This document shows positions 2,501 to 15,713 of a stretch of DNA of 64,000 nucleotides, one piece after another. A model generated the notes under the pieces. It was not told the DNA's origin, searched no databases, and saw nothing but the letters and a program-made list of their open reading frames with translations. The stretch lies in NCBI RefSeq assembly GCF_048403405.1, contig NZ_CP183129.1; one strand, given 5' to 3'. The stretch's first letter is position 1. Every line of letters starts with the position of its first letter. The DNA is from Escherichia coli. GTDB lineage: Bacteria; Pseudomonadota; Gammaproteobacteria; Enterobacterales; Enterobacteriaceae. Made by a program: the position numbers and the translations under genes.

Positions 2501-4891
<2,391 letters not shown>

Positions 4892-10966: not shown

Positions 10967-12013
10967 TCAGAAGCGGGTATCAACCGCAGAGGCGAGTTTT
11001 TCGACCAGGCGTTCGGTATCTTCCCAGCCCAGACACGGGTCGGTAATGGATTGACCGTAAGTGAGCGGCTGACCGCCGACGATTTTTTGCGTTCCTTCGC
11101 GCAGGAAACTTTCCGCCATAATTCCAGCAATCGCCGTAGAGCCATTGCGGATTTGCTGACAAATATCCTCACAAACTTCTAACTGGCGACGGTGCTGCTT
11201 CTGGCAGTTACCGTGGCTGAAATCCACCACCAGATGTTCAGGCAAATCAAATTCGTGCAGCGTATCGCAGGCTGCGGCGATATCATCGGCATGATAATTC
11301 GGTTTTTTGCCGCCACGCATAATAATGTGGCCATACGGGTTGCCACTGGTCTGATAGATGGTCATCTGACCATTTTTGTCTGGCGAGAGGAACATATGGC
11401 TGGCGCGGGCTGCGCGGATAGCATCCACAGCAATCCGCGTGTTGCCATCGGTACCATTTTTAAAACCTACCGGACAGGAGAGTGCCGAAGCCATTTCACG
11501 GTGGATCTGACTTTCGGTAGTACGTGCGCCAATCGCGCCCCAACTGATTAAATCAGCAATAAACTGACCGGTCACCATATCGAGGAACTCAGTCGCGGTA
11601 GGGACGCCCAGCTCATTTACCTGTAAAAGTAATTTGCGCGCCAGCTCCAGACCGTGATTTACCCGATAGCTGCCGTTTAAATCCGGATCGGAGATTAGCC
11701 CTTTCCAGCCGACAACAGTCCGTGGTTTTTCAAAATAGGTGCGCATTACGATTTCCAGCCGTGACTGGTACTGGTTGCGCAGCGACTGCAGACGGGTGGC
11801 GTACTCCATTGCAGCGGTGAGATCGTGGATCGAGCAGGGGCCAATAATGACCAACAGTCGCTTATCTTCACCATTCAGTATTTTTTCAATTCTGCGGCGG
11901 GAGTCGGTGACATGGGTGGCGACGCCAGGCGTTACGGGATACCGTAGCGCGAGTTCGGCGGGCGTTACCAGGCTCTCAATACGCGCAGTACGGAGTTCGT
12001 CAGTTCTGTTCAT
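10967..12013 (-). CDS. aroH: DAHP synthase, Trp-sensitive isozyme
   Basis: 348 aa beginning MNRTDELRTARIESLVTPAELALRYPVTPGVATHVTDSRRRIEKILNGEDKRLLVIIGPCSIHD. Confidence 0.95.
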   Translation of the reverse strand: MNRTDELRTARIESLVTPAELALRYPVTPGVATHVTDSRRRIEKILNGEDKRLLVIIGPCSIHDLTAAMEYATRLQSLRNQYQSRLEIVMRTYFEKPRTVVGWKGLISDPDLNGSYRVNHGLELARKLLLQVNELGVPTATEFLDMVTGQFIADLISWGAIGARTTESQIHREMASALSCPVGFKNGTDGNTRIAVDAIRAARASHMFLSPDKNGQMTIYQTSGNPYGHIIMRGGKKPNYHADDIAAACDTLHEFDLPEHLVVDFSHGNCQKQHRRQLEVCEDICQQIRNGSTAIAGIMAESFLREGTQKIVGGQPLTYGQSITDPCLGWEDTERLVEKLASAVDTRF

Positions 12014-12154
12014 TACAAGTCTCAGAAATTTGTTGCTTCTACGGCAGGACTACCGGGAAGTGATGCGCATCACGATAAACCAATCGCAGCTGATTTCAAG
12101 TGCGAGGTGTGTCACACCTCGCCGGGTGGTTAGCATGATAACAAAAAAATAAGC

Positions 12155-12176
12155 TAATGCACTAGTTCTCTAGTAC
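12155..12176 (-). promoter_or_regulatory. TrpR operator of the aroH promoter
   Basis: The minus strand reads GTACTAGAGAACTAGTGCATTAGC, a near-palindromic CTAG-containing Trp-repressor box, about 140 to 160 bp upstream of the aroH ATG and overlapping the ppsR stop codon. Confidence 0.75.
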
Positions 12177-13003
12177 ATTCGGCGGCTAAGGCCCATGATA
12201 TCGAGGATCTTGGTGGCAATCTCTTCTACCGAATAATTGGTACTGTTAATCCACGGGATCTGATTTTTACGGTACAACGCTTCCACTTCCGCGACTTCCA
12301 TCCTGCACTGACGAAGCGAGGCATAGCGACTGTTCTCCCGACGTTCCTCGCGAATCGCCGCCAGACGTTCCGGGTCGATAGTCAGGCCGAACAATTTATG
12401 CTGAAGCGGTTTGAGCGACGCGGGTAGCACCAGATTATCCATATCGTCGGCAATAAAGGGGTAGTTTGCCGCGCGGATACCAAATTGCATTGCCAGATAC
12501 AGACTGGTGGGGGTTTTACCACAGCGAGAAACACCGAGCAGGATCACCTGAGCCTGATCCAGATTGCGCAACGAAATGCCGTCATCGTGGGCGAGGGTGT
12601 AATCAATCGCCGCAATGCGCGCATCATATTTATTGAGATTATTAGGGTTAAGGCCATGGGTACGATGAGCAATCGGCGTGGGATCCAGTTTCATCTCTTG
12701 TTGTAGCGGGGCAACCAGCGCCTGAACGATATCCTGGCAAAAGCCCTCACTTTGCAAGATGATGGCGCGAATCTCCGGCAACACGATGGAGTAGAAGACC
12801 AGCGGGCGCACACCTGTCTGGTGATAAATTGCGTCAATCTGATCCTTCACTGCCCGTGCACGGCTCTCATTTTCGACAAACGGCAGCGTAATGCTGCTGA
12901 TAGTGACGGGAAATTGTGACATTACTGCGTGTCCTAATACCTCCGCAGTTATTGCCGTACCATCAGAAATATAAAAAACGTGGCGATCAACAGCATTATC
13001 CAT
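12170..13003 (-). CDS. ppsR: PEP synthetase regulatory protein (bifunctional kinase/pyrophosphorylase)
   Basis: 277 aa, [33 protein letters not shown]...; divergent from ppsA. Confidence 0.93.
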
Positions 13004-13334: not shown

Positions 13335-15713
13335 ATGTCCAACAATGGCTCGTCACCGCTGGTGCTTTGGTATAACCAACTCGGCATGAATGATGTAGAC
13401 AGGGTTGGGGGCAAAAATGCCTCCCTGGGTGAAATGATTACTAACCTTTCCGGAATGGGTGTTTCCGTTCCGAATGGTTTCGCCACAACCGCCGACGCGT
13501 TTAACCAGTTTCTGGACCAAAGCGGCGTAAACCAGCGCATTTATGAACTGCTGGATAAAACGGATATTGACGATGTTACCCAGCTTGCGAAAGCGGGCGC
13601 GCAAATCCGCCAGTGGATTATCGACACTCCCTTCCAGCCTGAGCTGGAAAACGCCATCCGCGAAGCCTATGCACAGCTTTCCGCCGATGACGAAAACGCC
13701 TCGTTTGCGGTGCGTTCCTCCGCTACTGCAGAAGATATGCCGGACGCTTCTTTTGCCGGTCAGCAGGAAACTTTCCTCAACGTTCAGGGTTTTGACGCCG
13801 TTCTCGTGGCAGTGAAACATGTATTTGCTTCTCTGTTTAACGATCGCGCCATCTCTTATCGTGTGCACCAGGGTTACGATCACCGTGGCGTGGCGCTCTC
13901 CGCCGGTGTTCAGCGGATGGTGCGCTCCGACCTCGCATCTTCTGGCGTGATGTTCTCCATTGATACCGAATCCGGCTTTGACCAGGTGGTGTTTATCACT
14001 TCCGCATGGGGCCTTGGTGAAATGGTCGTGCAGGGTGCGGTTAACCCGGATGAGTTTTACGTGCACAAACCGACACTGGCGGCGAATCGCCCGGCTATCG
14101 TGCGCCGCACCATGGGGTCGAAAAAAATCCGCATGGTTTACGCGCCGACCCAGGAGCACGGCAAGCAGGTTAAAATCGAAGACGTACCGCAGGAACAGCG
14201 TGACATCTTCTCGCTGACCAACGAAGAAGTGCAGGAACTGGCAAAACAGGCCGTACAAATTGAGAAACACTACGGTCGCCCAATGGATATTGAGTGGGCG
14301 AAAGATGGCCACAGCGGCAAACTGTTCATTGTGCAGGCGCGTCCGGAAACCGTGCGCTCACGCGGTCAGGTCATGGAGCGTTATACGCTGCATTCACAGG
14401 GTAAGATTATCGCCGAAGGCCGTGCTATCGGTCATCGCATCGGCGCGGGTCCGGTGAAAGTCATCCATGACATCAGCGAAATGAACCGCATCGAACCTGG
14501 CGACGTGCTGGTTACTGACATGACTGACCCGGACTGGGAACCGATCATGAAGAAGGCATCTGCCATCGTCACCAATCGTGGCGGTCGTACCTGTCACGCG
14601 GCGATCATCGCTCGTGAACTCGGCATTCCGGCGGTAGTGGGCTGTGGTGATGCAACAGAACGGATGAAAGACGGTGAGAACGTCACTGTTTCTTGTGCCG
14701 AAGGTGATACCGGTTATGTCTATGCGGAGTTGCTGGAATTTAGCGTGAAAAGCTCCAGCGTAGAAACGATGCCTGATCTGCCGTTGAAGGTGATGATGAA
14801 CGTCGGTAACCCGGATCGTGCCTTTGACTTCGCCTGCCTGCCAAATGAAGGCGTAGGTCTGGCGCGCCTGGAATTTATCATCAACCGCATGATTGGCGTC
14901 CACCCACGCGCACTGCTTGAGTTTGACGATCAGGAACCGCAGTTGCAAAACGAAATCCGCGAGATGATGAAAGGTTTTGATTCTCCGCGTGAATTTTACG
15001 TTGGGCGTTTGACTGAAGGGATCGCGACGCTGGGGGCCGCGTTTTATCCGAAGCGCGTCATTGTCCGTCTCTCTGATTTTAAATCGAACGAATATGCCAA
15101 CCTGGTCGGTGGTGAGCGTTACGAACCAGATGAAGAGAACCCGATGCTCGGCTTCCGTGGCGCGGGCCGCTATGTTTCCGACAGCTTCCGCGACTGCTTC
15201 GCGCTGGAGTGTGAAGCAGTGAAACGTGTGCGCAACGACATGGGGCTGACCAATGTTGAGATCATGATCCCGTTCGTGCGTACCGTAGATCAGGCGAAAG
15301 CGGTGGTTGAGGAACTGGCGCGTCAGGGGCTGAAGCGTGGTGAGAACGGGCTGAAAATCATCATGATGTGTGAGATTCCGTCCAACGCCTTGCTGGCAGA
15401 GCAGTTCCTCGAATATTTCGACGGCTTCTCAATTGGCTCAAACGACATGACACAGCTGGCGCTCGGTCTGGACCGTGACTCCGGAGTGGTGTCTGAACTG
15501 TTCGATGAGCGCAACGATGCGGTGAAAGCACTGCTGTCGATGGCGATTCGTGCCGCGAAGAAACAGGGCAAATATGTCGGGATTTGCGGTCAGGGTCCAT
15601 CCGACCACGAAGACTTTGCTGCATGGTTGATGGAAGAGGGGATCGATAGCCTGTCTCTGAACCCGGACACCGTGGTGCAAACCTGGTTAAGCCTGGCTGA
15701 ACTGAAGAAATAA
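13335..15713 (+). CDS. ppsA: Phosphoenolpyruvate synthase
   Basis: 792 aa, [34 protein letters not shown]; PEP-utilising enzyme phosphohistidine motif [13 protein letters not shown]. Confidence 0.96.

What the first reader, a model, noticed from the sequence alone, without database searches (positions are those of the whole stretch)
12155..12176. aroH Trp-repressor operator embedded in the 3' end of ppsR
The TrpR box overlaps the ppsR stop codon (12170..12172), so aroH promoter elements lie within or immediately at the end of the upstream co-directional gene. Read-through from ppsR and TrpR occupancy could interfere with each other.
Basis: partly seen in the sequence, partly recalled or inferred. 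Interest (0 to 1): 0.2.

Follow-up and report, generated by a model that had tools for sequence, protein, structure and literature searches.

The report
Known aroH Trp-repressor operator at ppsR stop
This is the long-known Trp-repressor binding site in front of the E. coli aroH gene; it does overlap the stop codon of the neighbouring ppsR gene, which is ordinary, though the main mapped aroH start lies about 100 bases further downstream.

Summary
Observation confirmed. The window is E. coli. On the minus strand, ppsR (13003..12170) is followed by aroH (12013..10967). The 18-bp box GTACTAGAGAACTAGTGC (12176..12159) matches the TrpR consensus at 15 of 18 positions. It is the only such match in 64 kb, and it holds 2 of the window's 11 CTAG tetramers. 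Its left half is the last base of the ppsR Met codon, the Tyr codon TAC and the stop TAG.

The box sits at this exact offset in 77 of 81 Enterobacteriaceae loci. It is absent in Serratia, Yersinia, Dickeya, Erwinia and Pantoea, which keep the same gene order.

An extended -10 (TG-n-TATCAT, 12143..12135) lies 18 nt downstream, so the box covers the -35 position of the classical aroH promoter (P1). However, the only aroH start site in two genome-wide data sets from cells in minimal medium is at 12064. That start comes from a second, more widely conserved promoter (P2), about 103 bp from the box centre.

In E. coli the palindrome plus a U-run also resembles a ppsR terminator.

Verdict: a known operator in a slightly crowded but unremarkable arrangement. 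The proposed interference with ppsR read-through is untested. Low interest.

The parts
12159..12176 (-). TrpR box GTACTAGAGAACTAGTGC (the aroH operator). Its left half-site is the G of the Met276 codon, the Tyr277 codon TAC and the stop TAG of ppsR.
   Evidence: 15 of 18 matches to the consensus and unique in the window, with 0.01 expected. Found at the same offset in 77 of 81 Enterobacteriaceae loci.
12156..12179 (-). Extended palindrome AATGTACTAGAGAACTAGTGCATT. As RNA it forms a 10-bp hairpin (12 pairs when the outer G-C pairs 12183/12153 and 12182/12154 are included).
   Evidence: The terminator-like scan finds it. The RNA fold is -13.7 kcal/mol, z = -4.1.
12170..12172 (-). ppsR stop codon TAG, which supplies the AG of the left CTAG core.
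   Evidence: Among 80 related loci the stop is TAA in 64, TAG in 15 and CAA in 1.
12143..12152 (-). T-rich tract TTATTTTTTT. It is the spacer of promoter P1 and, in RNA, a U-tract directly after the extended operator hairpin.
   Evidence: A T-rich stretch is present in only 38 of 77 loci that carry the box.
12135..12143 (-). Extended -10 of promoter P1 (TG-n-TATCAT; the hexamer is 12140..12135). The classical start is near 12126, from my own knowledge of promoter compilations and not verified here.
   Evidence: Read directly from the sequence. A TAnnnT hexamer lies 15-21 nt after the box in 74 of 77 loci.
12102..12122 (-). GC-rich hairpin GCGAGGTGTGACACACCTCGC between P1 and P2.
   Evidence: -15.6 kcal/mol, z = -3.8. 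The stem is kept with different sequences in other genera.
12072..12099 (-). Promoter P2: -35 TTGAAA (12099..12094), a 16-nt spacer, and -10 TATCGT (12077..12072).
   Evidence: Found by the promoter scan, 9 of 12 matches. TTGAA and TA..GT are invariant or nearly so in 44 Enterobacterales sequences.
12064..12064 (-). Mapped aroH transcription start (MG1655 U00096.2 coordinate 1786408), giving a 51-nt 5' UTR.
   Evidence: Kim 2012 Table S1, 414 reads. Cho 2014, 497 reads, sigma-70, three conditions.
10967..12013 (-). aroH, Trp-sensitive DAHP synthase; the regulated gene.
   Evidence: NCBIfam PRK12756, E 1e-211.
12170..13003 (-). ppsR, the PEP synthetase regulatory kinase/phosphorylase; the upstream gene whose last codons form half of the box.
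   Evidence: NCBIfam NF049928, E 2e-129.

Best explanation
The box is the classical Trp-repressor operator of aroH. With tryptophan bound, TrpR dimers occupy GTACTAGAGAACTAGTGC and the overlapping site shifted by 8 bp. This covers the -35 position of the weak, extended -10 promoter P1 (TG-n-TATCAT), so RNA polymerase cannot bind there (steric exclusion).

The overlap with ppsR arises because the operator-P1 module was built directly onto the 3' end of ppsR in the ancestor of the Enterobacteriaceae. It reuses the conserved C-terminal Met-Tyr codons and the stop codon as the left half-site.

An older promoter, P2, lies 62 nt downstream and carries no TrpR box. It supplies the aroH transcripts mapped in minimal medium. 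TrpR would therefore modulate only the upstream component of aroH transcription.

Shown here: the box, its uniqueness, its fixed position, P2 and its mapped start. Taken from the literature: TrpR binding and repression of aroH. Inferred: the division of labour between P1 and P2, and the order in which they evolved.
For: The box is unique and CTAG-rich. The downstream gene is the Trp-sensitive DAHP synthase.

In 77 of 81 Enterobacteriaceae loci the box starts 4 nt before the ppsR stop. Positions 1-6 and 12-15 are invariant, and 74 of 77 have a TAnnnT hexamer 15-21 nt downstream.

The terminal Tyr codon is TAC in 78 of 80 loci. The two TAT cases are the loci where the box is displaced (L033) or decayed (L036). 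Of the other ten Tyr codons, nine vary freely between TAC and TAT and one (Tyr11) is equally skewed.

The PpsR C-terminus R(R/S)M(Y/F) is conserved across Enterobacterales, so the protein end predates the box. Serratia, Yersinia, Dickeya, Erwinia and Pantoea keep the ppsA / ppsR-aroH gene order but have no box (best score 10 of 18). Four of the five keep the P2 block.

The start at 12064 was recorded with 414 and 497 reads, and none was listed at P1. TrpR repression of aroH is stated in PMC5343134. The binding studies of Kumamoto 1987 and Klig 1988 are cited by title.
Against: No start at P1 appears in the two start-site tables I could read. Both come from one laboratory and used minimal medium without a trpR mutant. 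In vivo use of P1 therefore rests on classical work that I could not open, and the P1 start position (about 12126) is from my memory of promoter compilations. Most Enterobacteriaceae have TAA rather than TAG at the stop, which removes one CTAG core, so binding strength there is unknown. No binding experiment can be done with these tools.
Confidence: 0.78

Rival explanations
1. P1 is the only aroH promoter, and the 5' end at 12064 is a processed end of the P1 transcript. TrpR would then control all aroH transcription.
For: This is the classical single-promoter view (my own knowledge). Start-site methods based on exonuclease treatment give some false primary ends. Both data sets that show 12064 come from one laboratory.
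Against: A well-spaced TTGAAA-16-TATCGT promoter with an A start 7 nt after the -10 sits exactly upstream of 12064. Its key positions are invariant in 44 sequences, including taxa with no box and no P1. No 5' end at P1 was recorded at all.
Confidence: 0.15
2. The main role of the overlap is interplay between ppsR read-through and TrpR. Bound TrpR would block polymerases coming from ppsR, or those polymerases would displace TrpR and occlude P1. In E. coli the operator palindrome plus the U-tract would act as the ppsR terminator.
For: There is no room for a separate terminator between the ppsR stop and P1. The palindrome folds at -13.7 kcal/mol and is followed by UUAUUUUUUU, and the terminator scan picks it up. 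The ppsR start site has read counts similar to aroH in Cho 2014 (438 against 497), so polymerases do arrive there.
Against: The stem is A/U-rich, with only 3 to 5 G-C pairs. The T-tract is present in only 38 of 77 loci that carry the box, and the scan reports no terminator-like site in Enterobacter. No sense-strand 3' end at ppsR or aroH is listed in the Adams 2021 tables that are held. No data bear on TrpR acting as a roadblock.
Confidence: 0.2
3. The palindrome is a chance or purely coding feature of the ppsR 3' end and has no regulatory role.
For: The left half is constrained by the conserved Met-Tyr-stop end of PpsR.
Against: The right half lies outside the gene and its CTAG is invariant. 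The match is unique in 64 kb. Where insertions separate the box from the stop (L033, L070), a complete box is still kept in front of aroH. The box is absent in outgroups that have the same protein end.
Confidence: 0.01

Closest known systems
E. coli aroH operator (Zurawski et al. 1981; Kumamoto, Miller and Gunsalus 1987; Klig, Carey and Yanofsky 1988)
   Same: It is this element: the same gene, the same 18-bp sequence, in front of the same -10. No base differs between this window and MG1655 within the box.
   Different: Nothing in the element itself.
trpEDCBA operator (trpO)
   Same: The same TrpR consensus with two CTAG cores, and the same mode of repression by excluding RNA polymerase.
   Different: From my own knowledge, trpO overlaps the -10 of its promoter and gives strong repression. 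The aroH box overlaps the -35 position of a weak promoter and shares bases with an upstream coding region.
TrpR sites at trpR, mtr and aroL
   Same: They belong to the same regulon.
   Different: Their positions relative to the promoter differ. According to PMC5343134, the aroH and aroL sites are conserved in only a few close relatives of E. coli. The 81 loci examined here extend the aroH site to 77 of 81 loci sampled across many genera of Enterobacteriaceae.
Promoters or operators that overlap the 3' end of an upstream co-directional gene (a generic arrangement in compact bacterial genomes)
   Same: Regulatory DNA shares bases with the last codons and the stop codon of the neighbouring gene.
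   Different: In this case a specific repressor half-site is spelled by Met-Tyr-stop, so the choice of stop codon (TAG or TAA) changes how well the operator matches the consensus.

Membership tests
TrpR operator | An imperfect palindrome of about 18 bp matching GTACTAGTTAACTAGTAC, with two CTAG cores | tested here: met
   15 of 18 matches, both CTAG cores present, unique in 64 kb, 0.01 expected by chance.
TrpR operator | Overlaps core elements of a sigma-70 promoter, so that bound repressor excludes RNA polymerase | tested here: inconclusive
   The box ends 18 nt upstream of TG-n-TATCAT and so covers the -35 position. The only mapped start is at P2, about 103 bp from the box centre. Use of P1 in vivo was not verified here.
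TrpR operator | Controls a gene of tryptophan or aromatic amino acid metabolism | tested here: met
   The downstream gene is the Trp-sensitive DAHP synthase AroH. TrpR repression of aroH is stated in PMC5343134.
TrpR operator | Physical binding by the TrpR-tryptophan complex | not testable with these tools
   Only citations to Kumamoto 1987 and Klig 1988 were seen. The papers themselves are not held.
TrpR operator | Conserved at orthologous loci | tested here: met
   Present in 77 of 81 Enterobacteriaceae loci at an identical offset. Absent in five other Enterobacterales genera.
Intrinsic terminator (of ppsR) | A stable G+C-rich stem-loop directly followed by a U-tract | tested here: inconclusive
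   -13.7 kcal/mol, followed by UUAUUUUUUU, but only 3 to 5 G-C pairs.
Intrinsic terminator (of ppsR) | Mapped RNA 3' ends at the U-tract | tested here: not met
   No sense-strand 3' end for ppsR or aroH appears in the held Adams 2021 tables. The other 3'-end data sets are not held as text. This is weak negative evidence only.
Intrinsic terminator (of ppsR) | Conserved among relatives | tested here: not met
   The T-rich tract is present in 38 of 77 loci, and the scan finds nothing in Enterobacter.
Sigma-70 promoter (aroH P2) | -35 and -10 hexamers with 16-18 nt spacing, and a mapped start 5-9 nt after the -10 | tested here: met
   TTGAAA-16-TATCGT with the start A at 12064, 7 nt after the -10. 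The hexamer key positions are invariant in 44 sequences. A sigma-70 and RNA polymerase ChIP peak spans the region.

The most novel reading that the evidence does not exclude
The TrpR box and P1 form an Enterobacteriaceae-specific module grafted onto the last two codons and the stop of ppsR. It lies upstream of an older, TrpR-independent promoter (P2) that makes most aroH mRNA. In Escherichia the same palindrome, followed by a U-tract, would also end ppsR transcripts. One 24-bp sequence would then serve as coding end, stop codon, repressor site and terminator. On this reading TrpR tunes only a minor upstream and read-through share of aroH expression, which would explain the modest repression of this gene.
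Probability: 0.3. Interest if true: 0.4.

Novelty: already known. Interest (0 to 1): 0.18.

Why it matters
The operator itself is textbook material, so confirming it adds little. Two points have modest value.

First, the start of aroH transcripts mapped genome-wide is not at the promoter that TrpR occludes. Anyone modelling or engineering TrpR control of aroH, for example in tryptophan production strains, should know this.

Second, the locus is a clean natural example of regulatory DNA written into the last codons of a gene. The choice of stop codon (TAG or TAA) changes the operator's match to the consensus. In the two lineages where the box at the stop was displaced or decayed, the terminal Tyr codon is TAT rather than TAC.

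Tried and rejected
RNA families: an Rfam scan of 11800..12500 at E up to 10 found nothing.

Start-site and 3'-end tables: there was no entry for aroH, ppsR or their coordinates in the held supplements of SMRT-Cappable-seq, Cappable-seq or Mendoza-Vargas 2009. No supplements are held for Conway 2014 or Dar and Sorek 2018. Thomason 2015 is not held.

Classical papers (Grove and Gunsalus 1987, Gunsalus and Yanofsky 1980, Kumamoto 1987) are not held. The phrase searches 'aroH operator' and 'aroH promoter' returned nothing. The cap on the number of papers was then reached.

A second TrpR-like box near P2: none; the best score in the leader is 11 of 18, and that is the 8-bp-shifted overlap of the main box.

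Reading the palindrome at the P2 start as a CRP site: the match (2 mismatches) is no rarer than chance in this window, with 2.4 expected. I leave it as an unexplained conserved palindrome.

The operator hairpin as a conserved terminator: rejected outside the Escherichia, Citrobacter and Salmonella group.

Full report
WHAT IS THERE

The window is Escherichia coli. The 501 bases around the finding are 100% identical to strain 2012C-4221 and are present at 95% identity or more in 5422 of 5426 complete E. coli genomes, annotated there as ppsR and aroH. Both genes are on the minus strand of the window. ppsR runs 13003..12170 and aroH runs 12013..10967, with ppsA divergent at 13335..15713. The minus strand reads ...CGC CGA ATG TAC TAG AGAACTAGTGCATTAGCTTATTTTTTTGTTATCATG.... 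The 18-bp box GTACTAGAGAACTAGTGC is 12176..12159. Its left half-site is the last base of the Met276 codon, the Tyr277 codon TAC and the stop TAG.

IS IT MORE THAN CHANCE?

Yes.
- The box has 3 mismatches to the TrpR consensus GTACTAGTTAACTAGTAC and is the only such match in 64 kb, where 0.01 are expected.
- The next-best 18-mers score 12 of 18.
- CTAG occurs only 11 times in the window against about 250 expected from base composition, and two of the eleven lie in this box.

WHAT IT IS

It is the known aroH operator. TrpR repression of aroH is stated in PMC5343134. The binding studies of Kumamoto 1987 and Klig 1988 are cited by papers I could open, but the originals are not held.

Eighteen nucleotides downstream of the box lies an extended -10, TG-n-TATCAT (12143..12135), so the box covers the -35 position of this promoter, which I call P1. 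From my own knowledge of the classical promoter compilations, the P1 start is near 12126, which places the box at about -50 to -33. I could not verify that number with the tools.

COMPARATIVE EVIDENCE

I fetched 80 species-level ppsR loci from Enterobacteriaceae, plus Klebsiella, Serratia, Yersinia, Dickeya, Erwinia and Pantoea.

- In 77 of 81 Enterobacteriaceae loci the box starts exactly 4 nt before the ppsR stop. Positions 1-6 (GTACTA) and 12-15 (CTAG) are invariant.
- In 74 of those 77 a TAnnnT hexamer follows 15-21 nt after the box, so the operator-P1 pair is conserved as a unit.
- The stop codon is TAA in 64 loci. It is TAG in 15, comprising Escherichia, the Citrobacter freundii group, Franconibacter and the MAG locus L033. 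Only the TAG lineages that carry the box (14 loci) have the full left CTAG core.
- All 14 box-bearing TAG loci have an imperfect right end of the box, whereas 54 of 63 TAA loci have a perfect GTAC there. The TAG loci fall in only about three clades, so I treat this as an observation and not as a test.
- The terminal Tyr codon is TAC in 78 of 80 loci. The two TAT cases are L033, where a 200-bp insertion has moved an intact box 205 nt downstream, and L036, where the box has decayed and the stop is lost. Of the other ten Tyr codons of ppsR, nine vary freely between TAC and TAT; only Tyr11 is comparably skewed.
- In L070 a 24-bp insertion separates the stop from a newly complete box, GAACTAGTAAGCTAGTAC.

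Together these points say that the box is selected as an operator in front of aroH. The overlap with the stop codon is the usual arrangement but not an obligatory one.

The protein end R(R/S)M(Y/F) is conserved throughout Enterobacterales, so it predates the box. Serratia, Yersinia, Dickeya, Erwinia and Pantoea keep the ppsA / ppsR-aroH gene order but have no TrpR-like box in the spacer (best score 10 of 18). This agrees with the remark in PMC5343134 that the TrpR-aroH link is confined to close relatives of E. coli.

A COMPLICATION: THE MAPPED START IS ELSEWHERE

The promoter scan also found TTGAAA-16-TATCGT at 12099..12072. Table S1 of Kim 2012 lists a single aroH start at U00096.2 coordinate 1786408, with 414 reads and a 51-nt 5' UTR. 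The printed upstream sequence matches this promoter. Using the ppsR end as the anchor (1786302 corresponds to 12170), this start is window position 12064. The cells were in glucose M9 medium at mid-log phase.

Cho 2014, from the same laboratory and with four conditions, lists the same start with 497 reads in three conditions, assigned to sigma-70. It lists nothing near P1. It gives ppsR its own start (1785439, 438 reads), lists ppsR and aroH as separate transcription units, and shows array log2 signals of about 8.3 for ppsR and 6.2 for aroH.

This second promoter, P2, is the best-conserved part of the spacer. TTGAA and TA..GT are invariant or nearly so in 44 sequences. The block is kept in Serratia, Yersinia, Erwinia and Pantoea, which lack the box. 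The box centre is about 103 bp upstream of the P2 start, and no second TrpR-like site lies near P2.

HOW IT MOST LIKELY WORKS

TrpR with tryptophan bound occupies the box and keeps RNA polymerase off P1. This step comes from the literature and fits the geometry seen here. P2, which by its distribution looks like the ancestral aroH promoter, fires independently and gives a basal level. This step is inferred from the mapped start and from conservation. The operator-P1 module was added in the Enterobacteriaceae by using the end of ppsR as the left half-site; this is inferred from the taxonomic distribution. The main rival reading is that 12064 is a processing site and P1 is the only promoter. I give that about 0.15, because a conserved, correctly spaced promoter sits at 12064 even in taxa that have no P1.

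READ-THROUGH AND INTERFERENCE

There is no space for a separate terminator between the ppsR stop and P1. In E. coli the palindrome, extended by two outer G-C pairs, folds at -13.7 kcal/mol (z = -4.1) and is directly followed by UUAUUUUUUU. This resembles a weak intrinsic terminator. However, the stem is A/U-rich, the T-tract is present in only 38 of 77 loci, and the scan finds nothing in Enterobacter.

A second hairpin, GC-rich, lies between P1 and P2 at 12122..12102 (-15.6 kcal/mol). It keeps its stem with different sequences in other genera. It lies in a similar position, between the ppsR stop and the P2 -35, to a GC hairpin in Erwinia (read from the junction sequence; the terminator scan did not flag it). 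Serratia has a scan-flagged terminator-like hairpin right after its ppsR stop.

The held tables of Adams 2021 list no sense-strand 3' end here. The separate transcription units and the lower aroH signal suggest that most ppsR transcription ends before aroH. Where it ends, and whether TrpR affects it, remains untested.

VERDICT

The element is the already-known aroH operator. The overlap with the ppsR stop codon is real, conserved and explainable, but not surprising. The proposed interference is possible but unsupported. The one point a specialist might not expect is that the mapped aroH start is at a separate downstream promoter outside the reach of the box.

Noticed in passing
window 12060..12073 (minus strand): The palindrome GTGATGCGCATCAC straddles the mapped P2 start (12064) and overlaps the end of its -10. 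GTGAT-N4-ATCAC is nearly invariant across 44 Enterobacterales sequences. The core resembles a CRP/FNR-type site, but a match with 2 mismatches is not rare in this window (2.4 expected). I know of no regulator for it.
   Followed up: partly
window 12102..12122 (minus strand): A GC-rich hairpin (-15.6 kcal/mol) lies between the two aroH promoters. The stem is kept with different sequences in Enterobacter, Leclercia, Pseudenterobacter and Kluyvera. It has no U-tract. It might be a remnant ppsR terminator or a structure at the 5' end of the P1 transcript.
   Followed up: partly
window 12036..12060 (minus strand): A stem-loop in the 51-nt aroH 5' UTR (CUUC-CGGUA...UGCCG-GAAG). RNAalifold predicts its inner stem, and three of the four inner-stem pairs show compensatory changes in a few species. 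The fold of the E. coli sequence alone is no better than shuffled controls.
   Followed up: partly
L007, L008, L010-L013, L016 (Citrobacter freundii group), about 3400..3440: A deletion of about 30 bp removes the GC hairpin and the TTGAAA -35 of P2 but keeps the box, P1 and the P2 -10 block. In this clade aroH may depend more on the TrpR-controlled promoter.
   Followed up: no
L033 3332..3535 and L040 3332..4945: Two Kosakonia-like loci share an inserted element directly after the ppsR stop (…TTGCAGTTTAATGG…AGCAGAAGCGGAGA.AGGCAAAGGA.CCCTACGCC…). In L040 it separates ppsR from aroH by 1.6 kb.
   Followed up: no
window, whole 64 kb: CTAG occurs only 11 times against about 250 expected from base composition. 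This is the known avoidance of CTAG in E. coli, and it makes a pair of CTAGs a strong marker of TrpR-type boxes.
   Followed up: yes
window about 12800 (plus strand), 12375 and 12324 (minus strand): Published tables list an antisense RNA 3' end inside ppsR (MG1655 1787648, minus strand; Adams 2021). They also list two weak stationary-phase starts inside ppsR (U00096.2 coordinates 1786097 and 1786148, with 8 and 13 reads; Cho 2014).
   Followed up: no
hit H10, E. coli NMBU-W10C18 (NZ_CP044403.1, 2800799..2800863): One of the few complete E. coli genomes in which the ppsR-aroH junction matches only 16% of the query. Its ppsR is annotated with a different product name, which suggests a replaced or divergent segment.
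   Followed up: no
window 12052, 12088, 12185: There are three single-base differences from MG1655 in the 271 bases around the box, and none lies in the box. One (12088, T here and A in MG1655) is in the P2 spacer and one (12052) is in the 5' UTR loop.
   Followed up: yes
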